Source: Anaerolineae bacterium (GTDB lineage: Bacteria; Chloroflexota; Anaerolineae; 4572-78; J111). From it: a stretch of 64,000 nucleotides of DNA. Below are positions 25,077 to 41,049 of this stretch, piece after piece. Where the stretch lies: positions 1-64,000 of the forward strand of contig JAJVIM010000042.1 in NCBI GenBank assembly GCA_022071955.1, in the 5' to 3' direction. Each line of letters begins with the position of its first letter. Position 1 is the first letter of the stretch. The notes beneath the pieces are model-generated. The model searched no databases. It worked only from the letters and a program-made list of their open reading frames with translations, and was not told the DNA's origin. The position numbers and the translations under genes were made by a program.

Positions 25077-26074
25077 TGTTGTCTTTCCTGATTGGGTTGA
25101 ATGATTTGACCGGCTTTGAGCTGCTGAACCAGCCGGGCGTTTTCAATGGCGACGGCGGTTTGGTTGGCCATGGCGGTCATTATTTTAATATCGCGTTGGG
25201 TAAAATTCGGCCCATCCAGATTGTTGGCGGCAGTTAATGTGCCAAGAATTGTACCCCGAAAGATAATAGGCACAACCAGCACCGCGCCGGCCTGGTTGTA
25301 CTGCCGGTACTGCTGTACCTCCGGGCTTTCGCGCAGGTCAGGCTGCTCCTTGGGCGAGAGCGCCGGCATTTTCTCGCGAATGACCCAACCGCTCAAACCG
25401 GCCATCATTTGGGCAAACGATATGACCGGTTTGTACTGGTTTGATTCAACATTGGTGACAATATTGGTTATATTTTGCCGGGCCAAATCCACCAGAATCA
25501 GCGCGGCCCGGTGCGCGGGCAGCGTTTGGCTAATGCTGTTTACGGCGTCCTGCAACAGGTCGGCCAGGCTGGTGATGGTAGTTAGCGACAGGCTGAAGCG
25601 GTACAGCGCCTCGGTATCGGCCAGCATGGCGGCGCTTTGCTCAAACAGGCGGCGATAGCGGGCCTCGCTGTATTTGAGCTTTTGCTCCATATTGTGTTTG
25701 TACAGGGCCATTTCGATGGTGCTGGGCAGGTCGCGGTTTTCAAAAGGCTTCAGCATGTAGCCGGCCGGTTCGGTTTGTTTGGCCCGCTCAAAGGTTTCGG
25801 CGTCGGTGTAGGCCGTCATAAAAACAATGGGCGTTACCTGCCGCTGGCGGATTTCCTGGGCCGCTTCAATGCCATCGAGCGAGCCTTGCAGTTTGATGTC
25901 CATCAGAATCAAATCCGGTTTAAGTTCCAGTGTCCGGGTAATGGCTTCTTCGCCACTGGCGACAATGGCCAGTACCGGGTAGCCGTGCTGCTCCAAACTC
26001 AGTTTAATGTTAGCAGCGACAATAAATTCATCTTCAACAATTAATATTCGGGCTTTGGGCATCCTGTTGCTCAT
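25073..26074 (-). CDS. Response regulator with REC and GAF domains (no DNA-binding output)
   Basis: ILIVEDEFIVAANIKL...DLILMDIKL receiver; C-terminal GAF-like region; ATGA overlap with the acyl-CoA ligase. Confidence 0.8.
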   Translation of the reverse strand: MSNRMPKARILIVEDEFIVAANIKLSLEQHGYPVLAIVASGEEAITRTLELKPDLILMDIKLQGSLDGIEAAQEIRQRQVTPIVFMTAYTDAETFERAKQTEPAGYMLKPFENRDLPSTIEMALYKHNMEQKLKYSEARYRRLFEQSAAMLADTEALYRFSLSLTTITSLADLLQDAVNSISQTLPAHRAALILVDLARQNITNIVTNVESNQYKPVISFAQMMAGLSGWVIREKMPALSPKEQPDLRESPEVQQYRQYNQAGAVLVVPIIFRGTILGTLTAANNLDGPNFTQRDIKIMTAMANQTAVAIENARLVQQLKAGQIIQPNQERQQ

Positions 26075-26122
26075 CAGTTTTGGCCAAAACTATACTGAAT
26101 CAATTTGAGAGTTACACTTTTG

Positions 26123-26267
26123 CCCTCATCCCCCCGGCCCCCTTCTCCCTCAGGGAGAAGGGGGAGAAAAGCTTTTTTGGTGCGGTTTTGAGCGGCGAAG
26201 CCGCTCAAAACCGCACCAAGTCAATCGTTCCCCCTCCCCAATTTGGGGAGGGGGTTGGGGGGAGGGG
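26123..26267. repeat. Composite GC-rich intergenic element, copy B
   Basis: GCCCTCATCCCCCCGGCCCCCTTCTCCCT arm; GGTGCGGTTTTGAGCGGC-GAA-GCCGCTCAAAACCGCACC (26179-26217); CCCCCTCCCC-aattt-GGGGAGGGGG (26230-26254); G4 motif 26245-26267. Confidence 0.5.
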
Positions 26268-26329
26268 ACCAGAAAGTGCAATTTTCATTCTGGCTTCAGT
26301 ATAAACGCCAGAAATTTCTATTGTAGTCT

Positions 26330-27460
26330 TCAACCGGGGTTGTCAGAAATAACCCGGTTCAGTGTTTCGATCAGTTTTTGCTGGGCCTGGGGCGATAATC
26401 CGCCGGCGGCCGCCGCCTGCAAAACGGGTTCCCAGTGCGGCACCGGCGTGTCCTGCCAGGCGATGCCGGCAGCTTCAAACACGGGCCGGGTGGCCGGCCA
26501 CGCTTCGGCCACCAGCGCCACCGGCTGGCTGCCATCGAGCGGCAGCGGCAGCGAAGTGGGCGGCGCGGACGGTGCGGGCGGTTGTTCGCCGGGGGGCAGC
26601 AGGCCAAACAGCCGCGCCGCGTTAAGGCCCATAATGTTGTCGGCAGCGTCGGGCGGCAACTTGAGCTGCTCAATTTCTTCGATAAACGGGCTAAAATCGG
26701 GGGCAGTCTGGCGGCGCGGGTAGAGTCGCAGCGGGTAGTCGGAGCCGTACAATATTTTGCCGGGGTCAACGCAGTGCAGGGCCGTGGCAAAAATTTTGGC
26801 GGTAGGGTAGAGCAGCGGCGAGGCGGCTGTATCGTACCACACGTTTTTGAGCACCCGGCCAACTTTGGGCATCAGCTCATAAAACAGCAACCCGCCGCCC
26901 CAGTGGGCCAAAATGAGCTTTAACTCCGGCAGGGTTTGCGCCAGCCGGTAGTAATGGCGCAGCGGCGTTGTGCTTTTGCCGGGGTAGTAGGGGCCAACCG
27001 CTTCGTTAACATGCAGATTGAGGGGAATATTGTGCCGGATGCAGGCCTCGGCCAGGCGCAGAAAATGGGTATCGCTCAGGCTGAAGCCCTGGGCGTACGG
27101 GTTCAACTCGCCCACCCCGGCAAAGCCGGCATCGAGGCAGCGCCGAAGTTCGGCCAGGGCCAGCGGACCGGCGTTAGGCTGAATCACTGCCAGCGGGATA
27201 ATCCGGTTGGGCCAGCGCCGGGCCAGTTCCATCGCCCGGTTGTTGCGCTCCACGCAGGCCTCGTGCCGCCGAAAATACTCGCCCACCAGCGCCACTCGGG
27301 CCAGCCCGGCCCGGTCCATAGCGGCGATCATCTGCTCGGCGCTGGCCCAGCCCTGCACCGATTTTGGCCCCAGCAGCAGCCCCCAATACGGTTCGCGCCC
27401 GGCCAGTTGGGCCGGGTCAATGGTGGGCGGCATATAATGAACGTGAGCATCAATGCGCAT
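26330..27460 (-). CDS. Amidohydrolase-family (TIM-barrel metal-dependent hydrolase) protein with C-terminal extension
   Basis: MRIDAHVHYMPP (HxH metal site) and conserved downstream His/Asp; start at 27460 or 27478. Confidence 0.75.
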   Translation of the reverse strand: MRIDAHVHYMPPTIDPAQLAGREPYWGLLLGPKSVQGWASAEQMIAAMDRAGLARVALVGEYFRRHEACVERNNRAMELARRWPNRIIPLAVIQPNAGPLALAELRRCLDAGFAGVGELNPYAQGFSLSDTHFLRLAEACIRHNIPLNLHVNEAVGPYYPGKSTTPLRHYYRLAQTLPELKLILAHWGGGLLFYELMPKVGRVLKNVWYDTAASPLLYPTAKIFATALHCVDPGKILYGSDYPLRLYPRRQTAPDFSPFIEEIEQLKLPPDAADNIMGLNAARLFGLLPPGEQPPAPSAPPTSLPLPLDGSQPVALVAEAWPATRPVFEAAGIAWQDTPVPHWEPVLQAAAAGGLSPQAQQKLIETLNRVISDNPG

Positions 27461-27519
27461 GGGCAGCTCTTTCTGCATAGCCGGATAATAGCACGGATAA
27501 GGCCAAAACGCTATCGGGA

Positions 27520-27548
27520 TTGCTTTCTGTCTGGCGTTTGGGTACAAT
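27520..27548 (+). promoter_or_regulatory. Candidate sigma70-type promoter for the STAND operon (TTGCTT-17-TACAAT)
   Basis: Hexamers and spacing read directly; 30 bp upstream of the ATG at 27579. Confidence 0.4.
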
Positions 27549-27578
27549 CTTAACCAACTTGCAAGAGGGTCCAGCGCG

Positions 27579-30500
27579 ATGAGTTTTACTGACGAGTGGC
27601 AGTCGCAGACAGCCGGCTCCATTGTTGAGGCGGCCCGATTGGTACCGCGGCTGCCCAATGTTGATCTCAAATTTGAGCTAATGGTGGTTGGGGTGCTCTG
27701 GCCGGCCCGGCAGCGGATTCAGGATTTTGAGGTGGATGCGCTGGGGGCGGTGCAGCAAGTTGTCGGTGGGCGCGCCGTAGCCGTGCTGTGCCAGGTGCAG
27801 CAGTGGAACGACGATATGCTGGCCGCCGCCCGCAGCCTGGCCGCGCTCGCGCCACGCAGCAGCGAACTTGACTCCGAATTGAAAAAGTTGATCGCCTATT
27901 TTAACGCGTTTCCGGTGTTTGCCCGGCAACTGGCCCAAAACGCCGCCGCGCCGCAGCCGGAGGTTGTTGCCCCGGTAACCGCGCCGGCCCCGCCGCGCGT
28001 GCTGCTGGCTTATGTTCAGCGCGATGGGGTTGAGCTGGCCGCGGAAATCCGCCAAACGCTGGAAGCCGAAGGGATTTCGGTGTGGCCGGATTTGGGCCAG
28101 CCGGCCGGCCAGCGCAACTGGTGGGCGCAAATGACCGCGGCCATTGCCCAGGCCGAATATTTGCTGGTGGTGATGACGCCGGCGGCGGCGCAATCCAAAT
28201 TGATTCGCCGCCAGTGGCGGGCGGCCAGCCAGCACGGCACCTGCATTTTCCCGGTTACCCGCGCCGACGACATCGATTACTCGCTGCTGCCGCGCTGGAT
28301 CAGGCAGGTTCACTTTTTCAATTTAAAGCTGGAATGGTCCAAGCTGATTGCCGCCCTCAAACAAAAGTGTGAAACCCCGCGCGTGCCGTTTATGGCCGAT
28401 GACCTGCCGGACGATTTTGTTGACCGGCCCCAGCTCGGCAAGCGGCTGCTTGGTTACCTGTTTGACCCCGTCCGCGAGGAGTCGATCCCCGGCACGGTGG
28501 GGTTATCTGGCCCCGGCGGTTACGGCAAAACCACGCTGGCCCAGATGGTTTGCCATAACGACGACATTCGGCAGGTGTTTGACAACGGCATTTTGTGGGT
28601 GACGCTGGGCGAAACCCCCGGCGATTTGAGCCGCCACGTGGTTGATTTGATCGAAGTGCTTAGCGGCGAGCGCCCCGGTTTTTCCGGGCTTGACGCGGCC
28701 GTGGTGCGGCTCAGCGAACTGCTGGCCGATCGCGAACTGCTGCTGGTCATCGACGATGTGTGGGACGCGGCCCATCTCAAACCTTTTTTGCAGGGCGGCA
28801 GCCACTGCGCCCGGCTCATCACTACCAGAAACATCAGCGCCCTGCCGGTTGATACCAAAATTGCCGAAATTGGCCCCATGCAGCCCGCCGAAGCGGTGTC
28901 GCTGCTGCGCTACCAGCTTCCCGCCGGCGGCGAAAACGAATTGCAGGCGCTGGCCCAGCGCATGGGTGGCTGGCCGCTGCTGCTCAAACTGACCAACGGT
29001 ACTCTGCGCGAGCGGGTGCAAAAATACAAACAGCCGCTGCTCGAAGCGGTTGCCTTTGTCAATCAGGCGCTCGATCAGCGCGGCCTGACCGCGTTTGATG
29101 ACCAGAGCGACGACGACCGCGATTCGGCGGTTACCCAGACCATCACCCTCAGTTTAGACCAGCTCACCCCGGTTGAACGGGAGCGCTTCAACGAGCTGGC
29201 CATCTTTCCGGACGACATCGACATTCCGCAGGCCACGCTGGAAACGCTGTGGGGCGCAACCGCCGGCCTGGATGATTTTGACACCGAAGAGCTGGCCGAT
29301 CACCTGCACGCGCTGTCTCTGCTCTCAAAGTTTGATTTAACCAGCCGCCAGATTCGGCTGCACAAAGTAATGCACAGTTATCTGCGCTACCAGCAGCGCG
29401 AGCAGCTTGTTCAAATTCACCAGCAGTTTTTGCAGGCGCAATTGGCGGCGGTGGGCCGCTGGAGTAACCTGCCCGCCAGCGATGGCTACATGTGGTCGCA
29501 CCTGGCTTACCACCTGCTCAACGCCAACCGCGCCGCCGAACTGCTGCAAACCGTGCAGGAGTTGCCTTACCTGGCCGCCAAAATTCAAATCAAAGGCTCG
29601 CACTACGCCGAGAGCGATTTAAAAACGGCGCAGGCGCTCAGTCCCACCGATGCGGCGCTGGGCGCATTGCGGCGGGCGGTATCGCAGGCCAGCTATCTGC
29701 TGGTGAAAGTTCAAAACCCGGCCGACATCATCAACACCCTGCACAGCCGCATGGTCAACATCCCGGAGCTGGCCGGCATTGTTGACTCGGCCAACTTGCC
29801 CCGGCCGCTCATCACCGCCCGCCACATGCTGCCGGATTTGCCCGATCCCCGGCTCATCCGCACTTTGTGGGGCCACACCACCGGCGTGCTGGATTGCGCT
29901 ATCAGCGCCGATGGCTCCACCACCGTTTCCGTGGACAAAGACAACACCGTGATTGTGTGGGATACCAACACCGGCGCGGCCCGCTTCCGGGTAATGCCCA
30001 GCGACAGCAAAGTGTGGAGTTGCGCGGCCAACGCCGATGGCTCGGTGGTGGTGTACGGTGCGGCCGATGGCCGGGTAACCCTGCTCGATACGGCCGCCGA
30101 GGCCGTGAAAAAACTGTGGAACGCCCACGAGGCCGGGGTCATCAGTTGCTGCATCAGCGCCGATGGCAAGCTGGTGGTCACGGCCTCTAAAGACAAAACC
30201 CTGAAAATTTGGGATGCGGCCACCGGCTCGCAGCGAGCCGTACTGGTGGGCCACGAGCGCACCGCCACCCGCTGCGGCATCAGCGCCGATGGCCGGGTGG
30301 TGGTTTCGGCCTCTAACGACGGCACGGTCAAAGTGTGGGATGCCGCCACCGGTGCGGAACGCCGCACCTTTGTGGTCGGCGCAGTTGATTCCGGGGTCGA
30401 TCAGCTTACCTTTTACAGCCAGCGCGACATCAGCTTTGGCTGCGCCATCAGCGCCGACGGCCGGATGGTAGCCGGGGCATCGTCGGCCGGCATGTTAAAT

Positions 30501-31649
30501 GTGTGGGATGCCGCCACCGGCGAGCTGAAATTTGGCACAATGGTCGATAAACGGGGCGTGTACGGCCTGGCGCTCAGCAGCGACGGCAGCCGGGTGGTTA
30601 CCGCCTCCAGCACCGGCGCGCTCAGCGTGAGAGACACCGCCGGCACGTTGCTGATGCGGCTTGAGGACCACACCCGCATTGTGAATGCCTGCGACATCAG
30701 CGCCGACGGGCTGCGCATCGTTTCGGCCTCTGATGATAAAACGGTAAAAGTGTGGGATGGCGGCAGCAGCGCCGCCGCCAGTTTGGCCGAGGTGCCGTAC
30801 AAACTCGCGGCCCAAACCTGCGCCGTCAGCGCCGATGGCCGGCTGGCGGTCACGGCGCTGGCCGATAATTCAGTAAAAGTGTGGGATGTGGCCAGCGGTG
30901 CGGATTTGGTCACCCTGCGGGGGCACACCCGCCGGGTCAATAGCTGCGCCATCGGCGCCGACGGCAAGCTGGTGGTTACGGCCTCGCAGGACCAAACGGC
31001 CATCGTTTGGGATGTTGCAACCGGCCAGCCGCAGCACACGCTGGCCGGCCACAGTTGGTCGGTGAATGGCTGCGCCATCGGCGCTAACGGGCTGTTGCTG
31101 ATGACCGCCTCAGACGACAGCACCCTCAAAGTGTGGGAAACCCGCACTGGCGAAGAACGGTTTACCCTCACCGGCCACAGCCGGGCCGTAAAAAGCTGCG
31201 CCATTAACAGCAACGGGGCGATGGCCGTTTCCGCTTCCGGCGATGGCACGCTGCGCCTGTGGAATCCGCATACCGGCGAGCAGCGGGCCGTACTCACCGG
31301 CCACACCGCGCTGGTCAACACCTGCGCCATCAGCGCCGACGGCAGCACCGTGGTCTCGGCGTCGCTGGACAAAACGCTCAAAGTGTGGAATACCCGCCCC
31401 GCCGCGGAACGGCTCACGTTGGCCGGCCACGATGCCAGCGTTACCGGCTGCGCCATCAGCGCCGACGGCCGGGTGGTGGTTTCTGTTTCTCGGGACAAAA
31501 CGCTCAAAGTGTGGGATGGCCGCTCCGGGGCGTGTTTGGGCACGCTGTTTGTCGATGAACCGCTGCACGACTGCGCCTGCTCGGCCGACGCCGGCACCAT
31601 TGTGGCGGTGAGCAGCGGCGGCGTTTATTTTTTGAAACTGGTGCAATAA
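27579..31649 (+). CDS. STAND NTPase, copy 1: N-terminal helical domain, divergent TIR, NB-ARC (Apaf-1-type AAA+), about 12-13 WD40 repeats (1356 aa)
   Basis: Walker A GLSGPGGYGKTTLAQ, Walker B LLLVIDDVWD, TTRN, GGWPLLLKL (GxP) motifs; TIR-like block RVLLAYVQRDG...; C-terminal half is repeated ...SADG..V(K/L)VWD... units. Confidence 0.85.
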   Translation: MSFTDEWQSQTAGSIVEAARLVPRLPNVDLKFELMVVGVLWPARQRIQDFEVDALGAVQQVVGGRAVAVLCQVQQWNDDMLAAARSLAALAPRSSELDSELKKLIAYFNAFPVFARQLAQNAAAPQPEVVAPVTAPAPPRVLLAYVQRDGVELAAEIRQTLEAEGISVWPDLGQPAGQRNWWAQMTAAIAQAEYLLVVMTPAAAQSKLIRRQWRAASQHGTCIFPVTRADDIDYSLLPRWIRQVHFFNLKLEWSKLIAALKQKCETPRVPFMADDLPDDFVDRPQLGKRLLGYLFDPVREESIPGTVGLSGPGGYGKTTLAQMVCHNDDIRQVFDNGILWVTLGETPGDLSRHVVDLIEVLSGERPGFSGLDAAVVRLSELLADRELLLVIDDVWDAAHLKPFLQGGSHCARLITTRNISALPVDTKIAEIGPMQPAEAVSLLRYQLPAGGENELQALAQRMGGWPLLLKLTNGTLRERVQKYKQPLLEAVAFVNQALDQRGLTAFDDQSDDDRDSAVTQTITLSLDQLTPVERERFNELAIFPDDIDIPQATLETLWGATAGLDDFDTEELADHLHALSLLSKFDLTSRQIRLHKVMHSYLRYQQREQLVQIHQQFLQAQLAAVGRWSNLPASDGYMWSHLAYHLLNANRAAELLQTVQELPYLAAKIQIKGSHYAESDLKTAQALSPTDAALGALRRAVSQASYLLVKVQNPADIINTLHSRMVNIPELAGIVDSANLPRPLITARHMLPDLPDPRLIRTLWGHTTGVLDCAISADGSTTVSVDKDNTVIVWDTNTGAARFRVMPSDSKVWSCAANADGSVVVYGAADGRVTLLDTAAEAVKKLWNAHEAGVISCCISADGKLVVTASKDKTLKIWDAATGSQRAVLVGHERTATRCGISADGRVVVSASNDGTVKVWDAATGAERRTFVVGAVDSGVDQLTFYSQRDISFGCAISADGRMVAGASSAGMLNVWDAATGELKFGTMVDKRGVYGLALSSDGSRVVTASSTGALSVRDTAGTLLMRLEDHTRIVNACDISADGLRIVSASDDKTVKVWDGGSSAAASLAEVPYKLAAQTCAVSADGRLAVTALADNSVKVWDVASGADLVTLRGHTRRVNSCAIGADGKLVVTASQDQTAIVWDVATGQPQHTLAGHSWSVNGCAIGANGLLLMTASDDSTLKVWETRTGEERFTLTGHSRAVKSCAINSNGAMAVSASGDGTLRLWNPHTGEQRAVLTGHTALVNTCAISADGSTVVSASLDKTLKVWNTRPAAERLTLAGHDASVTGCAISADGRVVVSVSRDKTLKVWDGRSGACLGTLFVDEPLHDCACSADAGTIVAVSSGGVYFLKLVQ

Positions 31650-34600
31650 ATGGCTTTTGAACAACAGTGGCGCGAGCAAGCGCATCATTGGATTGCCGAG
31701 TGCGTGCAGTTGGCCCAGGCCAACCCCGATGGCGAACTGGAATCGGTGCTGGCCGCGGTGGCGGTGCTGTGGCCGCTGCGCGAGCCGGTGCAGCAGTTTG
31801 ATCTGGAGGTCATCGCCGCAGTGCACCAGCAAGCTGGCGGCGGCTCAAAGTTTGTGCTGCGGCAGGTGCAGGCCTGGGATGATGGCGATCTGCTCAAAAC
31901 CGCCCGCCGCCTCCGCCGCGATCTGGCCCAAAACCCCGATCTGCTGGGCGCGGTCAACCGCCTGCTGGAGCAGTTTGGCGCCAAAGCCGAGTTTGATCGG
32001 CTGGCCGCGGCCGGCCAACCGACCCCCGCGAGCGCCGTGGCCGCGGCCCAATCGCGCGTGTTTATTTCGTATGCCCGCAGCGACGGCGAAACCGAAGCCC
32101 ACCATCTGCGCCAGCGGCTGGAGGCGGAAGGGATTGCAGTGTGGCAGGATCGGGTCAAAATGGTCGGTGGCCGCGATTGGTGGCTGCAAATTACCGAGGC
32201 GCTCGATCAGGTGGAGTTTTTGCTGCTGGTAGCTACCCGCGGCGCGCTGCAATCAGAAGTTGTCCACAAAGAGTGGCGCTACGCCCGCCAGCAAGGGGTG
32301 TGCGTGCTGCCCATCCAGGTGCAGGCCGATCTGCCGGAAGAGCTTATCCCCCGCTGGATGCGCCGCGCCCATTTTTACAACATCGAGCAGGAGTGGTCGC
32401 GGCTGATTGAAAATTTGAACACGCCCTGCCAAACCCCGCGCGTGCCGCACATGGTCGAAGAACTGCCGGATGGCTTTGTGTCCCGGCCGCAGCTTCTTGA
32501 CCAGGTGGCGGCGCAGTTGGTCAGCGCCAGCGGCGAGCCGGTGGCGGCAACGGTGGCTCTGCACGGGCTGGGTGGCTACGGTAAAACGTTGCTGGCCCGG
32601 TCGGTGTGCCACAGCGACGCGATTCGGCAGGGCTTTGACGACGGGATTTTGTGGATGACGCTGGGTGAAACCCCCGGCGACCTGACCGAGCGGGTGGTTG
32701 ATCTGATTGAGGTACTCACCGGCGAGCGGCCGGCCTTTGCCGGGCTTGACGCCGCCGAAACGCGGCTGGCCCAATTGTTGGGCGAGCGCAATTTTTTGCT
32801 GGTCATCGATGATGTGTGGCAGGCCAGCCATCTGGCCCCATTTTTGCAGGGCGGCCCGTGCTGCGGCCGCATCATTACCACCCGCAATCTGTCAACGCTG
32901 CCGCCGCAGGCCCAGCCCATCGAAGTTGGGCCAATGACCCAGCCCGAAGCAACGGCTTTGCTCGGCCGGGGGCTGCCGGCCGGGCCGGAAAAACCGCTGC
33001 ACGATCTGGCCGAACGGCTGGCGTACTGGCCGCTGCTGCTTGGCCTGGTGAACGGTACACTGCGCGACCGGGTGAATAATGACAACCAGCCGCTGGCCGA
33101 TGCGCTGGTTTACGTGAATAAAGCGCTCGACAAGCGCGGCCTGACTGCGTTTGATGCGGTCAATACCGGCGCTCGCGATCAGGCCGTAAGCCACACCCTC
33201 GGTATGAGCCGTGATTTGCTGCTACCGGATGAACTGGCCCGTTTTAACGAGCTGGCCATCTTTCCGCCGTATGCCGCCATTCCGCTGGACACGCTGGCCG
33301 TTTTTTGGGGCGCAACCGGTGGTCTTGATGCCGCCGCCATCGAAGCCCTGTGCCAGCGCCTGTTTCAGTTGTCGCTGTTGGCCCGGTTTGATATTCCCAG
33401 CCAAACCATCAAAGTGCATTCAATTTTGCGCAATTATCTCACCACCGAGCACGCCGCCCAGTTGCCGGCGCTGCACCAGAAATTTTTGGATGCCTTTGCT
33501 CAAAACCTGCCCGCCTGGGCCGCGTTGCCCCATGCCAACGGCTATTTGTGGAATCATCTGGCCTACCATCTGGTTAACGCTGGCCGCAGTGACGAGTTAG
33601 TCAGCACTGTGAAAGATTTGAGCTATCTGGCGCACAAAACATTTTTGCGCTCGGCCAACGCCGCCGAGGCCGATTTGCTGGCCGCCCGCCGGGTTGCGCC
33701 GGCAGACGCGGTTTTGGCCAAGTTGCATCTCGCCTTTTCACAGGCCAGCCACCTGCTGGCCGAGTGCAAGTCACTGGCAGAAGTGGCCGGCACGCTGCAC
33801 AGCCGGCTGGCTTTTGCGCCGCAACTAGCGCCGCTGGCCACCGCCGCCGAGGTTGGCTTGCCGCGGCCGCTGCTCACCGCCGGCCAACCCCTGCCCGATC
33901 TGCCGGCAGCCAGTTTGCTGCGGGCGTTTGCCGGCCATAATACCGCGGCGCTGGGCTGCGACATTGATGATGCCGGGGCCAGCGTGGTGTCTATTGACCG
34001 CGCGGCGCAGGTTAAAGTTTGGGACGCCCGGACCGGCGCGGAGCGGCTGACTCTGGCCGGCCACCAAACGCTGGGTAACTGCTGCGCCATCAGCGGCAAC
34101 GGTGCGGTGGTGGTGTCCGCTGCCTGGGATGGCGCACTCAACGTGTGGGACGCTGCTACCGGCGAACTGCGCCACGCGCTATCGGCCCACGAGGCGCCCA
34201 TTTACGCCTGCGCCATCAGCGCCGATGGCTCCGTTATTTTGTCGGCTTCCAAAGATAAAACGGTAAAAATTTGGGATGGCGTAACCGGCGCGCTGCGGTT
34301 TACGTTGAGCGGCCACGAGCGAACGGTGACCGGCTGCTCGCTCAACGCCGATGGCGCGCTGGCGGCCAGTTGCGCGCTGGACGGCACGGTAAAACTGTGG
34401 CATACGGCCAGCGGCCAGTTGCAGGCTACCCTCACCGCTTATGAACTGCGCGATTACAGCCCGGTGGCCGATTTAACCTTTACCTCCACCGCCTCATCGC
34501 TGTTGAGCTGCGCCCTCAGCGCCGATGGCCGCACGCTGGTGTCAACGCTGCCCAACGGCGCGCTCAAAGTGTGGGATGTGCCCACCGGCGCGGAACGCTG

Positions 34601-35705
34601 CCTGCTGCGCGGCCACACCGGCTGGGTTGAAAATTGCGCCGTCAGCGCCGATGGCCGGCTGCTGGTGTCCGCGGGGAATGATAAAACTCTCAAAGGCTGG
34701 GATGGCGTAACCGGCGACCTGCTGTTTACGCTCAAAGGCCATTTACGCGCGGTTGCCGCCTGCGCCATTAATGCTGATGGCACTATCATCGCCTCGGCCT
34801 CGCATGACCGGTCGGTGCGGTTGTGGGATGCCCGGGCCAGCCAGGAGCCTGTTGCCACCGAAGTATACAGTTCGCCAACGCAGGCGTGCGCCAGCAGCGC
34901 CAGTTTGCTGGCTTTTGGCGTGGCCGAAGAGTCCGTGCAACTTTTGGAAATCGCCACGCAGCAGCCGGGGCCGTTGCTCAGCGGCCATCAGCGGCCAATA
35001 TTGGGTTGCGCGGTGGGCCGGCGACTGGCGGTAACGGCTTCGCAGGATCATTCGCTCAAAATTTGGGATGCCGCCACCGGCCGCCAACTGCATTCGCTCG
35101 GCGGCCACGCCTGGGCGGTGAATGATTGTGCATTGACCCCCGATGAAACGCGGGTGGTTTCCGCCTCCGATGACAGCACCCTCAAAATTTGGGATACCGC
35201 TACCGGCGCCGAGTTGCGCACGCTGGCCGGCCATATCCGCGGGGTAAACGGCTGCGCGGTTAGCCCCGATGGCGCGTTTGTGGTTTCGGCCGCGGCGGAT
35301 GAAACGCTCAAAATTTGGGACTTGTCCACCGGCGCGGAGCGGTTGACTCTGGCCGGCCACACCGGTCCGGTGAATCAGTGCGCCGTCAGCCCCGATGGCG
35401 GGTTGATCGCTTCCGCCTCGCGGGACGGCACGCTCAAAATCTGGCGCAGTCAGAATGGGGCGGAGGTCATCACTTTAACCGGCCACACCGGTTTTGTGAC
35501 CGGCTGTGCGTTCCACCCCGGCGGCGAATTTCTGCTGTCGGTTTCCAGAGATGAAACCATCAAACTGTGGCGGATTGGCACCGGGCAGGGCGTGGCTTCG
35601 CTGCGGGTTAGCGGCGGCCTGCACAACTGCGCCTGGGCTTCCGACGGTCGGCTCGCGCTGGTGGCCGGGGCCAGAGGCGTTTACTTTTTGCGGGTTATTT
35701 GGTGA
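31650..35705 (+). CDS. STAND NTPase, copy 2: N-terminal helical domain, canonical TIR, NB-ARC, WD40 (1351 aa)
   Basis: TIR signature RVFISYARSDGETEAHHLRQRLEAEGIAVWQD; Walker A GLGGYGKTLLAR; LLVIDDVWQ; WD40 repeats; start codon abuts the copy 1 stop (TAAATG). Confidence 0.85.
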   Translation: MAFEQQWREQAHHWIAECVQLAQANPDGELESVLAAVAVLWPLREPVQQFDLEVIAAVHQQAGGGSKFVLRQVQAWDDGDLLKTARRLRRDLAQNPDLLGAVNRLLEQFGAKAEFDRLAAAGQPTPASAVAAAQSRVFISYARSDGETEAHHLRQRLEAEGIAVWQDRVKMVGGRDWWLQITEALDQVEFLLLVATRGALQSEVVHKEWRYARQQGVCVLPIQVQADLPEELIPRWMRRAHFYNIEQEWSRLIENLNTPCQTPRVPHMVEELPDGFVSRPQLLDQVAAQLVSASGEPVAATVALHGLGGYGKTLLARSVCHSDAIRQGFDDGILWMTLGETPGDLTERVVDLIEVLTGERPAFAGLDAAETRLAQLLGERNFLLVIDDVWQASHLAPFLQGGPCCGRIITTRNLSTLPPQAQPIEVGPMTQPEATALLGRGLPAGPEKPLHDLAERLAYWPLLLGLVNGTLRDRVNNDNQPLADALVYVNKALDKRGLTAFDAVNTGARDQAVSHTLGMSRDLLLPDELARFNELAIFPPYAAIPLDTLAVFWGATGGLDAAAIEALCQRLFQLSLLARFDIPSQTIKVHSILRNYLTTEHAAQLPALHQKFLDAFAQNLPAWAALPHANGYLWNHLAYHLVNAGRSDELVSTVKDLSYLAHKTFLRSANAAEADLLAARRVAPADAVLAKLHLAFSQASHLLAECKSLAEVAGTLHSRLAFAPQLAPLATAAEVGLPRPLLTAGQPLPDLPAASLLRAFAGHNTAALGCDIDDAGASVVSIDRAAQVKVWDARTGAERLTLAGHQTLGNCCAISGNGAVVVSAAWDGALNVWDAATGELRHALSAHEAPIYACAISADGSVILSASKDKTVKIWDGVTGALRFTLSGHERTVTGCSLNADGALAASCALDGTVKLWHTASGQLQATLTAYELRDYSPVADLTFTSTASSLLSCALSADGRTLVSTLPNGALKVWDVPTGAERCLLRGHTGWVENCAVSADGRLLVSAGNDKTLKGWDGVTGDLLFTLKGHLRAVAACAINADGTIIASASHDRSVRLWDARASQEPVATEVYSSPTQACASSASLLAFGVAEESVQLLEIATQQPGPLLSGHQRPILGCAVGRRLAVTASQDHSLKIWDAATGRQLHSLGGHAWAVNDCALTPDETRVVSASDDSTLKIWDTATGAELRTLAGHIRGVNGCAVSPDGAFVVSAAADETLKIWDLSTGAERLTLAGHTGPVNQCAVSPDGGLIASASRDGTLKIWRSQNGAEVITLTGHTGFVTGCAFHPGGEFLLSVSRDETIKLWRIGTGQGVASLRVSGGLHNCAWASDGRLALVAGARGVYFLRVIW

Positions 35706-35720
35706 GAAAGGAGCGCAGCC

Positions 35721-36167
35721 ATGAAAATTGCCGTCGCCAGCGATGAAAAAACTTATCTGACCGATTTTGTGGTCAAGGATTTGAATCAGCGCGGCCACGA
35801 ACCGCTGCTTTTTGGCCCGCTGGCCGGTGTTGACCTGCCCTGGACGCTGGCCTCGGAGCAACTGGCCGATGCTGTGGCCAGCGGCGAAGCCGACGAAGGC
35901 GTATTGTTTTGTTACACCGGCACCGGTGCCTCGATGGCCGCCAACAAGGTGCCGGGCATCCGCGCTGCCCTCTGCGGCGATGCCCAAACCGCCCGTGGGG
36001 CGCGCTGGTGGAATGACGCCAATGTGCTGGTGTTAAGTTTAAGAGCAACCTCGCCGGAGGTGGCAAAAGAAATTCTTGATGCCTGGTTTTCGGAAACCGT
36101 TCGGCCAGATGAAGTCGCCACGATTGCCCAGTTGAAAGCGATTGAAGCTCGCCACGCCCCAAAATAG
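35721..36167 (+). CDS. RpiB/LacA/LacB-family sugar-phosphate isomerase
   Basis: CYTGTGASMAANKVPGIRAALC...WWNDANVLVLSLR; 15 bp after STAND copy 2 with its own RBS GGAGC. Confidence 0.75.
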   Translation: MKIAVASDEKTYLTDFVVKDLNQRGHEPLLFGPLAGVDLPWTLASEQLADAVASGEADEGVLFCYTGTGASMAANKVPGIRAALCGDAQTARGARWWNDANVLVLSLRATSPEVAKEILDAWFSETVRPDEVATIAQLKAIEARHAPK

Positions 36168-36170
36168 CCG

Positions 36171-36208
36171 GTTGGGGGTGGTTTAACCCCAACTCTGTTT
36201 TCGTATTT
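36171..36208 (+). terminator. Rho-independent terminator after the RpiB-family gene
   Basis: GTTGGGG-gtggtttaa-CCCCAAC followed by TCTGTTTTCGTATTT. Confidence 0.55.
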
Positions 36209-36233
36209 GGCCCCCGATTCGTAAGTTTGGTTC

Positions 36234-36262
36234 TTGACAAGCGTGTTTAACTATGGTATTCT
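36234..36262 (+). promoter_or_regulatory. Promoter of the LacI-family regulator (TTGACA-17-TATTCT)
   Basis: Consensus -35 and near-consensus -10 read directly. Confidence 0.45.
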
Positions 36263-36273
36263 GGGCGAAATTT

Positions 36274-36289
36274 CCGGTAACGTTACCGG
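36274..36289. promoter_or_regulatory. LacI-family operator palindrome CCGGTAACGTTACCGG (autoregulatory site)
   Basis: Perfect 16-bp palindrome with central CG, immediately downstream of the -10. Confidence 0.55.
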
Positions 36290-36328
36290 TATTGATACCG
36301 AAATCGCGAAAAATTGAGAATTTGACCA

Positions 36329-37345
36329 ATGCCACGTTCAAAGGGATCCGTAACCATCCACGATGTTGCCCGCGCCGCCGGAGTTTCGGTGTCTACGGTT
36401 TCCCGTGTATTAAATGACAAAGACGATGTTGCCATTGATACGTATGAACAGGTGAAGCAGGTCATTTCAGAGTTAGGTTATACCTCCAGCCTGGCCGCCA
36501 AAAGCATGCGCAGCCGAAAAACAAATGTTATCGGTTTGGTCATGCCTGATGTGGGCGACTCTTTTTCAGTTGAGGTAATGAAAGGGGTCAACCAGGCGAT
36601 TGCCCAGTTTGGGTATGATTTGATTATGTACACCGGCGGCGACGCCAGCGCCAGTTCGTGGCCGGCCCGCGAACAAAAATACATCTCGCTGCTTAACGGC
36701 AGTATTACCGATGGCGTTGTCATTGTAGCACCCTACGCGCTCACCTTTCCCACCACTTACCCCGTAGTAGCAGTAGACCATCACCCCGGCGACACAAATT
36801 TTCCCGCTGTTGTTTCTACCAACCGTGAAGGCGCGTTAGCCATTATGGAATATTTGATTCAACTTGGGCATCGACGCATTGGCTACGTTGGCGGGCGTAG
36901 CGACCTGCAAAGCGGTATTCGTCGATATCAGGGTTATGTTGATGCCTTGCAGCAGGCGGACATCCCCGTTAACCCGGAACTGGTTCAGGAAGGTAATTTT
37001 ACAATTGATGTTGGGTATCGCTGTGGCCAGCATCTGTTGAACCTGCCCGAACGGCCAACAGCTATTTTTGCCGCCAACGACCAATCGGCCTTTGGTGTGA
37101 TTAGGGCTGCCCACGAAATGGGGCTGAAAATCCCCGACGATGTCTCGATTGTGGGGTTTGACAATATCCCGGAAACAGCCTATTTCCTGCCCGGTGGTTT
37201 AACAACCGTAGACCAGAGTGTGCGCCAGATGGGGCTGGCCGCAACGGAAATGCTGGTCAAACTTATTAAAGGGGAGGCATTGGCTGAAACGATTTACAAA
37301 GTGCCAACCCGACTTGTTGTTCGTGGCTCCTGCCGGGCCGTTTAG
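36329..37345 (+). CDS. LacI-family transcriptional regulator
   Basis: N-terminal HTH VTIHDVARAAGVSVSTVSRVLN, periplasmic-binding-protein-like core. Confidence 0.9.
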   Translation: MPRSKGSVTIHDVARAAGVSVSTVSRVLNDKDDVAIDTYEQVKQVISELGYTSSLAAKSMRSRKTNVIGLVMPDVGDSFSVEVMKGVNQAIAQFGYDLIMYTGGDASASSWPAREQKYISLLNGSITDGVVIVAPYALTFPTTYPVVAVDHHPGDTNFPAVVSTNREGALAIMEYLIQLGHRRIGYVGGRSDLQSGIRRYQGYVDALQQADIPVNPELVQEGNFTIDVGYRCGQHLLNLPERPTAIFAANDQSAFGVIRAAHEMGLKIPDDVSIVGFDNIPETAYFLPGGLTTVDQSVRQMGLAATEMLVKLIKGEALAETIYKVPTRLVVRGSCRAV

Positions 37346-37369
37346 TCCCCCATCTTTTTTTTACCTTTT

Positions 37370-37394
37370 CGGTAACGTTACCGGAAACGTTATC
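37370..37394. promoter_or_regulatory. Second LacI-family operator (CGGTAACGTTACCGG plus partial AAACGTTATC) upstream of the sugar ABC operon
   Basis: Same palindrome as at 36274. Confidence 0.55.
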
Positions 37395-37562
37395 ACTACA
37401 CAAGGAGGTGGCATCGGTAAAAAATCTGTTCATATGGAATAGCAAGGCTTCCCTTTCTTCTCTGCACTTGAGGGAAAACTTGCCCAAAGCGGTGTGGGGC
37501 CGAGCATCACACCTACAATGATTTAACCCGTTAAAACGAACACTATTTTAAGGAGAAGAACA

Positions 37563-39068: not shown

Positions 39069-39084
39069 GTTCTTGTTATAGTAT

Positions 39085-39120
39085 GGGCCAGTGTATTTCA
39101 AATACACTGGCCCATTTTAT
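39085..39120 (+). terminator. Intercistronic hairpin/partial terminator between SBP and permease genes
   Basis: GGGCCAGTGTATTT/AAATACACTGGCCC 14-bp perfect stem followed by ATTTTAT. Confidence 0.55.
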
Positions 39121-39220
39121 AGGAGTCCGGCAGAACCGGGGGTAGATACCAAAAATGCCTGCCTCTAAAGGGAGCTGCCTCCCACGCCCGGTCTGCGGTG
39201 TTATTTTCACAGGAGTAAAT

Positions 39221-40123
39221 ATGATGGGTCGATTGCGATTAAGAAAAGATCACTACGGATATGTTTTTATCGCTCCTTTTATTATTGGTTTTCTGACATT
39301 TGGTTTATACCCGGTTTACAACACGCTGTACCTCAGTTTTACAGATACAATCCTGTTAAGTAGCAGCGCCAATTTTGTGGGGTTTACCAACTTTGTGCGC
39401 CTGTTTGCTGATAATGTGTTTATGAACGCCATCAAAAATAGCTGGCTGCTCTGGATCCTAAATTTTATTCCCCAAATTGGAGTAGCCATGTTGCTGTCGG
39501 TTTGGTTTACCAGCCTGCGGCTGAGAATTAAAGGTGTTGGCATTTGGCGGGCGATATTCTTTTTGCCAAATTTGCTGATGCCCGCTGCTGTGGCGGCGCT
39601 GTATTTTAGCTTGTTCTCGTTTTACGGCCCGGTTAACCAATTTTTGGTCCGGGCCGGATTTTTATCTGAGGCGATGCAGTTTTTGCAGAATGCTACCATT
39701 GCCCGCGGCCTTGTGGTTTTCATTCAGTGGTGGATGTGGTACGGCCCAACCATCATTTTGCTGATGGCCGGGATGACCGCCATTCCCGTTTCGCTGTATG
39801 AATCGGCCATGATCGACGGCGCCAACGAGCAGCAGATGTTCTGGCGGATAACACTGCCGCTGCTAAAACCCATCCTGATTTATATTTTTGTCACGTCGCT
39901 GGTTGGCGGGATGCAAATGTTTGATATTCCCTACCTTTTAACGGACGGCCGCGGCTCGCCCAGCGGTTCCATTATGACCAACAACATCCTGATGTATCTG
40001 AAATTTGCCAGCAGTAAAGGTCACATTGGCGCGGCGTCGTCTGTTGGGGTTTTGGTTTTTATTATGACCTGCGTTTGTGCGCTCGGCATCTTTTATTTTT
40101 TACGAGAAAAAGACCATCGTTGA
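39221..40123 (+). CDS. Sugar ABC transporter permease (MalF/UgpA-like)
   Basis: Six TM helices, EAA-like loop; RBS AGGAG. Confidence 0.85.
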   Translation: MMGRLRLRKDHYGYVFIAPFIIGFLTFGLYPVYNTLYLSFTDTILLSSSANFVGFTNFVRLFADNVFMNAIKNSWLLWILNFIPQIGVAMLLSVWFTSLRLRIKGVGIWRAIFFLPNLLMPAAVAALYFSLFSFYGPVNQFLVRAGFLSEAMQFLQNATIARGLVVFIQWWMWYGPTIILLMAGMTAIPVSLYESAMIDGANEQQMFWRITLPLLKPILIYIFVTSLVGGMQMFDIPYLLTDGRGSPSGSIMTNNILMYLKFASSKGHIGAASSVGVLVFIMTCVCALGIFYFLREKDHR

Positions 40124-40168
40124 TGACCGTTTGGGGTGGAAAATAATGCAAAAACCGGAGATGTTGCG

Positions 40169-41014: not shown

Positions 41015-41049
41015 GTTATCTCACATCGCCACATTTGAAAGGTAAAATA

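What the first reader, a model, noticed from the sequence alone, without database searches (positions are those of the whole stretch)
27579..28020. Conserved about 130-aa helical domain N-terminal to the TIR in both STAND proteins
Both proteins begin with a roughly 35-40% identical domain before the TIR: M(S/A)F(T/E)(D/Q)(E/Q)W...VLWP(A/L)R(Q/E)...QVQ(Q/A)W(N/D)D. The second copy lies at 31650-32070. An extra domain upstream of the effector in STAND conflict proteins often acts as an adaptor or oligomerisation (effector-associated or death-like) module. I cannot assign it to a known family from sequence alone.
Basis: seen in the sequence. Interest (0 to 1): 0.55.

Follow-up and report, generated by a model that had tools for sequence, protein, structure and literature searches.

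The report
New helical cap on bacterial NLRs
Both giant TIR-NB-ARC-WD40 immune-type proteins start with a real, independent ~120-residue six-helix domain from a rare, undescribed family seen so far only in Chloroflexota, always at the very start of sensor proteins; its function is inferred, not shown.

Summary
Two abutting genes (A 27579-31649, B 31650-35705) encode 45%-identical TIR-NB-ARC-WD40 proteins. Their first ~120 residues are 34-35% identical (E=3e-21).

The region is not part of the TIR. Pfam TIR_2 starts at residue 141 (A) and 137 (B). AlphaFold2 gives a confident six-helix bundle, a disordered linker, then the TIR.

An exhaustive profile search of 1.84 billion proteins found only 96 representatives. 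In essentially all, the domain is at the extreme N-terminus, and every named source is a Chloroflexota MAG. Most members have no TIR: the domain heads NB-ARC, NACHT, nSTAND1 and nSTAND3 NTPases, single-pass TPR membrane proteins and FGE-sulfatase proteins.

It matches nothing in Pfam, NCBIfam, PADLOC, PHROGs or the PDB, by sequence or by fold, and is unrelated to bDLD3. Conserved residues are core hydrophobics and three Trp, with no catalytic signature. Both copies are under purifying selection.

The domain works like an NLR N-terminal signalling domain, but Death-like and EAD membership tests fail or are untestable.

In relatives, though not in A or B, a conserved amyloid-like motif follows the domain and is shared with adjacent kinase and CHAT genes.

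My best inference is that it is a non-catalytic assembly or output module next to a self-assembling element, which here is the TIR.

The parts
27579..27944 (+). N-domain of protein A (residues 1-122): six-helix bundle, the feature in the finding
   Evidence: AF2 helices 3-20, 31-48, 52-74, 80-89, 95-107, 110-122. Family HMM match 1-121. dN/dS 0.22 against the L007 orthologue.
27945..27992 (+). Flexible A/P/Q-rich linker of A (residues 123-138)
   Evidence: pLDDT<50 for residues 124-136. Linker length varies from ~12 to ~50 aa among N-dom-TIR relatives. dN/dS 1.8, based on few sites.
27993..28394 (+). TIR domain of A (residues 139-272), with Gln212 at the catalytic-Glu position
   Evidence: Pfam TIR_2 141-250, E=1.2e-14. 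Q212 aligns with E208 of B. dN/dS 0.08.
28395..31649 (+). NB-ARC STAND NTPase, helical region and WD40 propellers of A
   Evidence: Pfam NB-ARC 301-479 and many WD40/beta-propeller families. P-loop at residue 311.
31650..32012 (+). N-domain of protein B (residues 1-121): second copy
   Evidence: AF2 model with pLDDT 87.5, pTM 0.80 and six helices spanning 3-121. HMM match 1-120. dN/dS 0.09.
32013..32051 (+). Flexible linker of B (residues 122-134)
   Evidence: pLDDT<50 from residue 124 to the end of the N-dom model. Low-complexity sequence AAAGQPTPASAVAAAQ.
32052..32453 (+). TIR domain of B (residues 135-268), catalytic Glu208 retained
   Evidence: Pfam TIR_2 137-244, E=1.2e-18. The 'HKEW' Glu aligns with the Glu of 'VHKEIV' in SARM1 TIR and with the SPARTA TIR Glu. 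Residue number.
32454..35705 (+). NB-ARC STAND NTPase, helical region and WD40 propellers of B
   Evidence: P-loop at residue 306.

Best explanation
Residues 1-~121 of A and B are an autonomous, non-catalytic six-helix domain. It belongs to a previously undescribed family found so far only in Chloroflexota, and it always sits at the extreme N-terminus of sensor-type proteins. In relatives it lies directly N-terminal to a self-assembling output element, a conserved G/N-rich amyloid-like motif. In A and B that slot is filled by a TIR on a flexible tether. Proposed mechanism: (1) the WD40 sensor binds a trigger and the NB-ARC switch oligomerises, probably as an A+B hetero-oligomer. (2) This clusters the flexibly tethered N-domains together with the TIRs. 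(3) The clustered N-domains self-associate and so nucleate or stabilise ordered packing of the adjacent output element. Here that element is the TIR layer, in which only B keeps the catalytic Glu. The domain therefore works like the CARD, PYD or CC caps of NLRs, by induced proximity rather than catalysis. Shown: domain autonomy, fold class, family distribution, architectures, lack of catalytic signature, purifying selection. Inferred: steps 1-3, hetero-oligomerisation and N-domain self-association.
For: Autonomy: TIR_2 begins at profile position 1 after the domain. AF2 gives a confident bundle, and the two-domain model has a disordered linker and pTM 0.49. Linker length varies from 12 to 50 aa. 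Family: 96 representatives among 1.84e9 proteins, with the match starting at residue <=13 in nearly all. Split halves of the family give 100% hhalign probability, and core against the distant subgroup gives 99.1%. Carriers are all sensor or switch proteins, with the domain in the N-terminal 'output' slot: NB-ARC, NACHT, nSTAND1-GAF, nSTAND3/AAA_16-TPR, TM-TPR and FGE-sulfatase. WD40 and FGE-sulfatase domains are treated as sensors in PMC13581612. Non-catalytic: the conserved positions are W7 (100%), L40/W41/P42, W76, L88, L98, L102, F109, R44 and some Asp, with no catalytic set. Soluble-type: helix 1 has median KD -0.23, and only 4 of 84 domains hold a TM-like stretch. Always next to a self-assembling element: the motif follows 5-20 residues after the domain in about 36 or more members of every non-TIR class, and the TIR follows in A, B and their orthologues. 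Functional constraint: dN/dS 0.22 (A) and 0.09 (B), against 0.08-0.15 for the other domains. Obligate pair: the TAA-ATG junction, the tandem pair conserved in L001 and L007, and the A-type Gln/Ile versus B-type Glu difference.
Against: There is no direct evidence of self-association, because multimer prediction was not possible with these tools. The domain is the least conserved folded region between A and B (34% against 42-58%). If it only served assembly in cis, its retention in single-pass TM-TPR and FGE-sulfatase proteins that lack an NTPase is not obviously explained. In most relatives it is the only non-sensor globular domain, which fits a direct effector equally well. A restraining (autoinhibitory) role would fit the same positional evidence. 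Taxonomy and context rest on fragmentary MAG contigs, and only 13 loci were examined.
Confidence: 0.4

Rival explanations
1. Direct non-enzymatic executioner. In this reading the N-domain is a functional analogue of Bell, HeLo, MLKL-4HB or plant CC domains. Clustering on the oligomerised STAND, or conversion of the adjacent amyloid-like motif in relatives, would activate it to damage the membrane or another cellular structure. In A and B it would be a second effector beside the TIR.
For: It occupies the effector slot and is the only non-sensor globular domain in about 60 relatives. It sits immediately N-terminal to an amyloid-like motif, the same geometry as HET-S and Bab (Bell-BASS) described in 10.1101/2020.01.06.895854 and 10.1101/2024.11.07.622273. 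It is strictly N-terminal, with a conserved M1-x-F3-x-x-x-W7 start. A distant subgroup has a TM-like hydrophobic helix 2/3 hairpin. It occurs in filamentous Chloroflexota.
Confidence: 0.2
2. Gatekeeper or autoinhibitory cap. The N-domain would hold the neighbouring self-assembling element (amyloid-like motif in relatives, TIR in A and B) in an inactive, soluble state until the sensor fires.
For: The positional evidence is the same as for the best explanation: always directly N-terminal to the motif or TIR, and only on sensor-type carriers. It has the features of a soluble helical bundle. It is under purifying selection.
Against: AF2 places no confident contact between the N-domain and the TIR (pTM 0.49, disordered linker). 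The long, variable linkers (12-50 aa) are unusual for an intramolecular lid. Closely related TIR-NB-ARC proteins function without it or with a trypsin-like domain in its place (P0006, P0022).
Confidence: 0.17
3. Classical effector-associated (EAD or Death-like) homotypic adaptor. N-domains on A and B would recruit separate proteins carrying the same domain, either effectors or upstream receptors such as the TM-TPR proteins, encoded elsewhere in the genome.
For: It is a small, non-enzymatic, all-helical terminal domain on conflict-type proteins of multicellular bacteria, which fits the general EAD description in PMC7159879. Two adjacent genes both carry it. It is fused to several unrelated core modules, including membrane receptors and FGE-sulfatase proteins.
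Against: No member among the 96 representatives is an N-domain fused only to an enzymatic effector. The apparent N-dom-TIR-only and standalone forms are split genes. Nine other loci hold a single copy within +/-10 kb. The A-B adjacency is explained by whole-gene tandem duplication, and the two copies are no more alike than unrelated members (33% against 32-45%). In relatives the adjacent-gene coupling is carried by the short motif instead. There is no Death-like fold or bDLD3 relationship.
Confidence: 0.12
4. Heterotypic docking or decoy domain that binds a conserved host or phage protein lacking the N-domain, acting as an extra sensor or target mimic. Alternatively it is a small-molecule-binding domain.
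For: Three near-invariant Trp plus conserved Arg and Asp could line a binding pocket or surface. No homotypic partner was found in the neighbourhoods.
Against: Carriers already have dedicated C-terminal sensors (WD40, TPR, FGE-sulfatase). The conserved residues are mostly buried-type hydrophobics. No recurrent neighbour lacking the motif was seen.
Confidence: 0.08
5. Not an independent feature: either an N-terminal extension of the TIR fold, or similarity that merely reflects the paralogy of A and B.
For: A and B are paralogues along their whole length, so similarity at the N-terminus alone would not prove a domain.
Against: The TIR profile starts after it. AF2 shows a separate bundle and a disordered linker. 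About 85 of 96 family representatives carry the domain without any TIR.
Confidence: 0.01

Closest known systems
Effector-associated domains (EAD1-12) and bacterial Death-like domains (bDLD1-3) of Kaur, Burroughs, Iyer and Aravind (PMC7159879, PMC8195603)
   Same: [quoted passage not shown] It is promiscuously fused to unrelated core modules and plausibly acts by induced proximity.
   Different: No sequence relationship: there is no Pfam hit, and hhalign to bDLD3 gives 0.4%. No Death-fold similarity. It is about 120 aa with three long helices, against 80-90 aa for Death-like domains. The defining pairing with a second copy on an adjacent effector protein was not observed. It is strictly N-terminal, whereas EADs occur at either end.
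Bell / HeLo / HELL / MLKL-4HB / plant CC N-terminal helical executioner domains, with adjacent amyloid signalling motifs (BASS; 10.1101/2020.01.06.895854, 10.1101/2024.11.07.622273)
   Same: N-terminal helical bundle. In relatives it is followed at once by a short G/N-rich beta-type motif that is shared with adjacent genes. It is also found fused directly to NLR-type NTPases, and it occurs in filamentous bacteria.
   Different: The N-terminal helix is not hydrophobic, and no MEPIS-type motif is present. It has six helices over ~120 aa, against a predicted five-helix ~100 aa (Bell) or ~80 aa (Bab). No structural match was found. Here the helical domain and the motif sit on the receptor itself, not on a small separate effector. 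A and B lack the motif. Bell was reported in Chloroflexota only for the genus Chloroflexus. Homology to Bell could not be tested because no Bell sequences were available.
Apaf-1-like and plant-TNL-like TIR-NB-ARC-WD40 STAND proteins, including paired sensor/helper NLRs
   Same: A and B are TIR-NB-ARC-WD40 proteins. They form a conserved tandem pair in which one TIR has lost the catalytic Glu. This is reminiscent of paired plant TNLs, a comparison from general knowledge that was not tested here.
   Different: An extra N-terminal helical domain precedes the TIR. More than 100 close TIR-NB-ARC relatives lack it, and one has a trypsin-like peptidase in its place.

Membership tests
TIR domain (N-terminally extended TIR) | The region is covered by, or structurally continuous with, the flavodoxin-like alpha/beta TIR fold | tested here: not met
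   Pfam TIR_2 begins at profile position 1 at residue 141 (A) and 137 (B). AF2 gives an all-alpha bundle at 3-122, a linker with pLDDT<50 at 124-136, then the beta-alpha TIR at 141-261. The domain occurs without a TIR in most relatives.
Death-like superfamily (DD/DED/CARD/PYD, bDLD1-3) | Six-helix Greek-key Death fold of about 80-95 residues, detectable by structure comparison | tested here: not met
Death-like superfamily (DD/DED/CARD/PYD, bDLD1-3) | Profile-profile similarity to a bacterial Death-like family | tested here: not met
   hhalign of A2 against 21 rows of the published bDLD3 alignment gives probability 0.43%. Positive controls give 100% and 99.1%. bDLD1, bDLD2 and CARD profiles were not tested.
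Effector-associated domains (EAD principle, PMC7159879) | Small domain without enzymatic features, mostly alpha-helical, at a terminus of a core component | tested here: met
   ~120 aa, six helices. No catalytic residue pattern. Always N-terminal on STAND, TM-TPR or FGE-sulfatase proteins.
Effector-associated domains (EAD principle, PMC7159879) | Further copies fused to effector or signalling (usually enzymatic) domains in separate proteins, often encoded by the adjacent gene | tested here: not met
   No N-dom-enzyme-only architecture was found among 96 representatives. The apparent N-dom-TIR-only protein is a split gene. There is a single copy within +/-10 kb in L003-L006 and L008-L013. Only the duplicated A/B pair is adjacent. 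Whole genomes could not be searched.
Effector-associated domains (EAD principle, PMC7159879) | [quoted passage not shown] | tested here: not met
   A against B gives 33-35%. A against the unrelated carrier P0132 gives 36%, B against P0132 gives 32%, and A-type orthologues are 45-58% identical to each other.
Effector-associated domains (EAD principle, PMC7159879) | Sequence membership in one of EAD1-12 | tested here: inconclusive
   No Pfam-A (2025 copy) family hits the region in A, B or 20 relatives. The signature motif is absent from the supplementary data of the 2021 paper. I could not confirm which EAD models the Pfam copy holds, and no EAD alignments were available.
Bell / HeLo-type membrane-targeting executioner domains | Hydrophobic N-terminal (pore-lining) helix with a conserved MEPIS-like motif and an acidic residue at position 2-3 | tested here: not met
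   Helix 1 has median KD -0.23 (A -0.29, B -0.83). The consensus start is M-x-F-x-x-x-W-R-x-Q. Acidic residues at position 2 occur in only some members.
Bell / HeLo-type membrane-targeting executioner domains | Helical domain followed directly by an amyloid signalling motif that is shared with an adjacent gene | tested here: inconclusive
   Met in relatives: the motif follows the domain and recurs in neighbouring kinase, CHAT and small-protein genes. It is not met in A or B, which have A/P-rich linkers and no motif-bearing neighbour in the window. The amyloid nature of the motif is untested.
Bell / HeLo-type membrane-targeting executioner domains | Sequence or structural homology to Bell or Bab | not testable with these tools
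   No Bell or Bab sequences or coordinates were available. No solved structure resembles the model.
Anti-sigma factor N-terminal domain (considered because of the N-dom-TM-ectodomain relatives) | Adjacent ECF sigma factor gene, and a match to an anti-sigma domain family | tested here: not met
   No sigma-70 family hit in neighbours of TM-type members. No Pfam match over the domain.

The most novel reading that the evidence does not exclude
The N-domain is a new fold-level family. Together with the conserved 'QIKAALVNIGGxTNIQSL' motif and the partner proteins (Ser/Thr kinase, CHAT protease or small proteins carrying motif plus a DUF4404-like tail), it would define a previously unrecognised signalling network specific to Chloroflexota and based on amyloid-like templating. 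In this network the N-domain would be either a new type of executioner or the nucleator of templated assembly. The window's A/B pair would be a derived branch in which the motif was replaced by a TIR and the two paralogues specialised into a catalytically dead member (A, Gln212) and an active member (B, Glu208).
Probability: 0.25. Interest if true: 0.7.

Novelty: new variant of a known kind. Interest (0 to 1): 0.45.

Why it matters
N-terminal non-enzymatic helical domains are the signalling heads of NLR-type immune receptors in animals, plants, fungi and bacteria. Examples are CARD, PYD, CC, HeLo, Bell and the EADs.

This appears to be a further family of that kind with no detectable relative. 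It is confined to poorly studied filamentous Chloroflexota, and it is used on at least five different sensor chassis, including membrane receptors. If its mode of action were worked out, it would add a new element to the vocabulary shared by bacterial and eukaryotic innate immunity.

The associated motif and partner genes give a concrete, testable handle on amyloid-like signalling outside Actinobacteria and Cyanobacteria.

For this window specifically, the finding refines the annotation of two 'TIR-NB-ARC-WD40' genes into a probable obligate pair, each with an extra conserved head domain.

The limit on its importance is that new conflict-system domains are described frequently, and no function is demonstrated here.

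Tried and rejected
- **Word-indexed protein search, N-domain of A alone:** 0 hits, not even itself. The exhaustive HMMER search was what revealed the family.
- **`search for related loci` with alignments A1 and A2:** The single-protein scan found only the near-identical Caldilineaceae MAG.
- **AFDB50 fold search:** the library was unavailable. The AlphaFold database, the most likely place for structural relatives, was therefore never searched.
- **Viral mimic idea:** no BFVD or PHROGs match.
- **Anti-sigma-factor idea for the TM-type relatives:** no sigma factor neighbours.
- **'Standalone N-domain' and 'N-dom-TIR only' architectures:** initially counted as support for adaptor logic, then rejected as split or fragmented genes. 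L005 has an NB-ARC fragment downstream, and L004 has NACHT-HD and FGE-sulfatase fragments downstream.
- **Adjacent-copy coupling of the N-domain itself:** not found outside the duplicated A/B pair.
- **Defence-island context:** rejected, since the flanking genes are metabolic.
- **Membrane insertion by simple hydrophobicity:** not supported for most members.
Full report
**1. What is in the sequence**

On the + strand there are two long ORFs: A (27579..31649, 1356 aa) and B (31650..35705, 1351 aa). A's TAA stop is immediately followed by B's ATG, so the two genes are almost certainly co-transcribed and translationally coupled. The proteins are 45% identical over their full length. Both have Pfam TIR_2 (A 141-250, B 137-244), NB-ARC and many WD40/beta-propeller matches.

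Two small corrections apply. The folded unit is about 120 residues, not about 130. The stated ends (28020, 32070) run a few residues into the TIR.

**2. It is an independent domain, not part of the TIR**

- The TIR_2 profile starts at its own position 1 after the region.
- AlphaFold2 on a 7-sequence alignment gives a confident model for B residues 1-134 (pLDDT 87.5, pTM 0.80). It has six helices (3-24, 31-48, 52-74, 81-94, 96-109, 111-121) and a disordered tail.
- A second model of A residues 1-275 shows the same bundle (3-122), a linker with pLDDT<50 (124-136), and then a normal alpha/beta TIR (141-261). Its pTM of 0.49 means no confident packing between the two.
- Among relatives with N-dom plus TIR, the linker varies from about 12 to about 50 residues and is A/P/Q/S/T-rich.
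- Decisively, most relatives carry the domain without any TIR (see section 3).

**3. The family**

The word-indexed search found nothing with the N-domain alone. With N-dom plus TIR it returned 136 TIR relatives, of which only five also cover the N-domain.

An exhaustive HMMER profile search of 1.84 billion representative proteins found 96 hits at E<=1e-3, 55 at <=1e-10 and 13 at <=1e-30. The match starts at or very near residue 1 in nearly all. The family is coherent: hhalign gives 100% between split halves and 99.1% between the core and a distant subgroup.

Every source that names an organism is a Chloroflexota MAG:
- Caldilineaceae, 98% identical to the window (L007)
- a contig labelled Litorilinea
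- Ardenticatenaceae
- Anaerolineae
- 'Chloroflexota bacterium'

Clusters have 1-4 members, so the family is rare. No source annotation names the domain.

**4. Architectures**

| Class | Approx. number of representatives | Examples |
|---|---|---|
| N-dom-TIR-NB-ARC-WD40 (the window's type) | ~10 | A, B, P0121, P0126, P0127 |
| N-dom followed by a P-loop NTPase, no TIR | ~40 | NB-ARC-TPR/WD40; NACHT (P0132, P0199; some with three TM segments before WD40); nSTAND1-GAF (P0140); nSTAND3/AAA_16-TPR (P0135, P0154) |
| N-dom, ~50-aa segment, one strongly hydrophobic helix, ~450-aa TPR region (625-790 aa, no P-loop) | ~20 | P0134, P0138, P0147, P0148; presumably single-pass membrane proteins with the N-domain in the cytoplasm |
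| N-dom-FGE-sulfatase (420-450 aa, complete genes) | 3 | P0142, P0156, P0167 |

Apparent 'N-dom-TIR only' and 'standalone' forms turned out to be split or fragmented genes.

All carriers are therefore sensor or switch proteins, and the domain always occupies the N-terminal slot where NLR-type proteins carry their signalling or effector head. WD40 and FGE-sulfatase domains are treated as sensors in a recent systematic STAND survey (PMC13581612). A close TIR-NB-ARC relative (P0022) has a trypsin-like peptidase in the same slot, and many others have nothing there. The slot is therefore modular.

**5. No known relative**

- A, B and 20 relatives give no Pfam-A hit over the domain.
- NCBIfam, PADLOC and PHROGs give nothing.
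- Single-sequence and profile searches of PDB sequences give nothing, or only designed helical proteins at noise level.
- Foldseek against PDB and BFVD gives no hit at E<=1e-3, with TM scores around 0.2-0.35.
- hhalign against the published bDLD3 alignment gives 0.4%.
- The family's 'LWP(I/V)R' signature is absent from the 6.2 million characters of supplementary data in Kaur et al. 2021.
- AFDB could not be searched, which is the main gap.

**6. Properties**

Conserved positions across 84 complete domains are W7 (100%), L40, W41, P42, W76, L88, L98, L102 and F109. R44 (80%) and partly conserved Asp and Arg residues complete the set. There is no His/Cys/Ser/Glu constellation that would suggest catalysis.

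Helix 1 is amphipathic and polar on average (median KD -0.23). Only 4 of 84 domains, all in the distant subgroup, contain a TM-like 19-mer.

Against the 92-95% identical Caldilineaceae orthologues, dN/dS is 0.22 for A's N-domain and 0.09 for B's. The other folded regions give 0.08-0.15, and A's linker gives about 1.8. Both copies are therefore functionally constrained.

**7. Context**

In the window the pair is flanked by metabolic genes: AMP-binding enzyme, response regulator-GAF, amidohydrolase, RpiB, LacI-type regulator and sugar ABC transporter. The same synteny is seen in L001 and L002, so this is not a defence island.

An HMM scan of all six-frame ORFs found no other N-domain in the 64 kb. 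Two adjacent copies occur only at A/B-type loci (window, L001, L007). Nine other loci have a single copy within +/-10 kb.

**8. An unexpected feature of the wider family**

In every non-TIR class, a highly conserved ~25-residue G/N-rich motif lies 5-20 residues after the N-domain. Examples:
- 'VYNLSEQIKAALVNIGGVTNIQSLEVTVSL'
- 'ANITGDIKAALVNIGGITNIDSLAVHLNL'
- the variant 'IDISGTITGGNIVIGGNQIVAGDLII'

The motif also occurs in genes adjacent to N-domain genes:
- a Ser/Thr kinase directly upstream in L010 (E=0.0016)
- a 167-aa protein upstream in L011 (E=3e-6)
- a 140-aa protein downstream in L008/L009 (E=0.003)
- weakly, a 244-aa protein upstream in L006
- the C-terminus of a CHAT protease 12 bp upstream in L013

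After the motif, these partners share a helical tail with near-threshold, full-length DUF4404 matches.

A short beta-type motif shared between adjacent genes is the grammar described for bacterial amyloid signalling (BASS). A helical N-terminal domain followed at once by such a motif is the layout of Bell-BASS, Bab and HET-S.

A and B lack the motif; their linkers are 'QNAAAPQPEVVAPVTAPAPP' and 'AAAGQPTPASAVAAAQS'. No motif-bearing ORF exists in the window. In the A/B lineage the element next to the N-domain is the TIR.

**9. How it most likely works**

What is shown: an autonomous, non-catalytic, soluble-type helical domain under purifying selection. It is always the N-terminal head of a sensor protein, and it always lies directly N-terminal to an element whose activity depends on ordered self-assembly. 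That element is the amyloid-like motif in relatives and the TIR here.

What I infer (confidence about 0.4):
1. Trigger binding by the WD40 sensor drives NB-ARC oligomerisation, probably of A together with B.
2. The tethered N-domains are thereby clustered and self-associate.
3. Self-association nucleates or stabilises packing of the adjacent TIRs.

This is how CARD, PYD and CC heads of NLRs work. It is a statement about mechanism, not about family membership.

Rivals:
- A direct non-enzymatic executioner of the Bell/HeLo/CC type (0.2). This is favoured by the effector-slot position and the domain-then-motif layout. It is disfavoured by the polar helix 1 and the lack of any structural match.
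- An autoinhibitory gatekeeper of the neighbouring element (0.17).
This is weakened because no N-dom-enzyme proteins exist among 96 representatives, and because adjacent-gene coupling is carried by the motif rather than the domain.
- A heterotypic docking or ligand-binding domain (0.08).
- A TIR extension or mere paralogy (0.01, refuted).

**10. Comparison with known families**

The domain works like an NLR N-terminal signalling head. It meets the generic EAD description (small, helical, non-enzymatic, terminal) but fails the defining pairing criteria. It fails the fold and profile tests for the Death-like superfamily. It shares the 'helical domain + adjacent motif' grammar with Bell/HeLo in relatives, but it lacks the hydrophobic MEPIS-type N-terminus. 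Direct homology to Bell could not be tested. I therefore file it as a new family within a known functional kind.

**11. Side observation on the pair**

B's TIR keeps the catalytic Glu: E208 in 'HKEW', which aligns with the Glu of 'VHKEIV' in SARM1 (residue E642, by my recollection of the literature) and with the SPARTA TIR Glu.

A has Gln212. All A-type orthologues have Gln or Ile at this position, and all B-type orthologues have Glu. A's TIR is nonetheless under strong purifying selection (dN/dS 0.08).

Together with the abutting genes and the conserved tandem arrangement, this suggests an obligate hetero-pair with one non-catalytic TIR.

**12. Verdict**

It is apparently undescribed, but it belongs to a familiar category. 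Interest is moderate (0.45). The domain family, its membrane-receptor members and the associated motif-and-partner system would merit a focused comparative study. Function is inferred only, and new conflict-system domains are found often.

Noticed in passing
window 28212-28214 (A Gln212) and 32271-32273 (B Glu208); junction 31647-31652: A's TIR has Gln where B's TIR has the catalytic Glu, which aligns with the SARM1 and SPARTA TIR Glu. All A-type orthologues have Gln or Ile, and all B-type orthologues have Glu. Both TIRs are under purifying selection, and the genes abut (TAA-ATG). This looks like an obligate pair with one non-catalytic TIR, reminiscent of paired plant TNLs.
   Followed up: partly
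Relatives, ~residues 125-160 (e.g. L011 1414-3291, L013 3185-5155, L010 10001-12922, L008 10001-16243); absent from window: A highly conserved ~25-aa G/N-rich motif ('QIKAALVNIGGxTNIQSLxV', variant 'GGNIVIGGxQIVAGDLII') follows the N-domain in every non-TIR class of the family. A and B have A/P-rich linkers instead. It resembles amyloid signalling (BASS/HET-s-type) motifs, but its amyloid nature is untested.
   Followed up: partly
L010 8270-9997; L013 1710-3173; L011 862-1365; L008 16839-17261; L006 135-869: Genes adjacent to N-domain genes carry the same motif followed by a shared DUF4404-like helical tail. They encode a Ser/Thr kinase, a CHAT protease and three small proteins. This suggests a motif-mediated partner system around the N-domain carriers. 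No paper in the searchable library mentions DUF4404.
   Followed up: partly
Family members P0134, P0138, P0139, P0143, P0145, P0147, P0148, P0150, P0153, P0155, P0158, P0170, P0171, P0177, P0178, P0191: About 20 representatives are N-dom, motif, a single hydrophobic helix (around residue 175-190), then a ~450-aa TPR-containing region with no P-loop. They are probably single-pass membrane receptors whose only cytoplasmic parts are the N-domain and the motif. Secreted-looking proteins often follow them (L012 573 aa, L013 523 aa).
   Followed up: partly
Family members P0130, P0132, P0133, P0164: These N-dom-NACHT proteins have three strongly hydrophobic segments (about residues 520-680) between the NTPase and the WD40 repeats. 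That is an unusual membrane-embedded NLR layout.
   Followed up: no
P0022: A TIR-NB-ARC protein with a TIR about 61% identical to B's carries a trypsin-like peptidase (PF13365) in the slot where A and B have the N-domain. Over 100 other close relatives have no N-terminal domain at all. The head position of this TIR-STAND clade is therefore modular.
   Followed up: no
L001 5887-12672: The syntenic A/B pair in this 53.7-kb metagenomic contig is broken into four ORFs, with A split at 8376 and B split inside the N-domain and again after the P-loop. This reflects either pseudogenisation or assembly and sequencing frameshifts.
   Followed up: no
L003 5712-11219: An N-dom-FGE-sulfatase gene is followed within 20-40 bp by a SIR2_2 gene, an FHA-nSTAND1 gene and a 444-aa gene of unknown family. 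This is a possible multi-gene conflict operon in which only the first protein carries the N-domain.
   Followed up: no
window 26001-36000 versus 36001-42000: The A/B region has G+C 0.61-0.65, against 0.51-0.52 immediately downstream and 0.56 upstream. Other parts of the window (16-20 kb, 42-50 kb) are equally G+C-rich, so this is not clear evidence of foreign origin.
   Followed up: no
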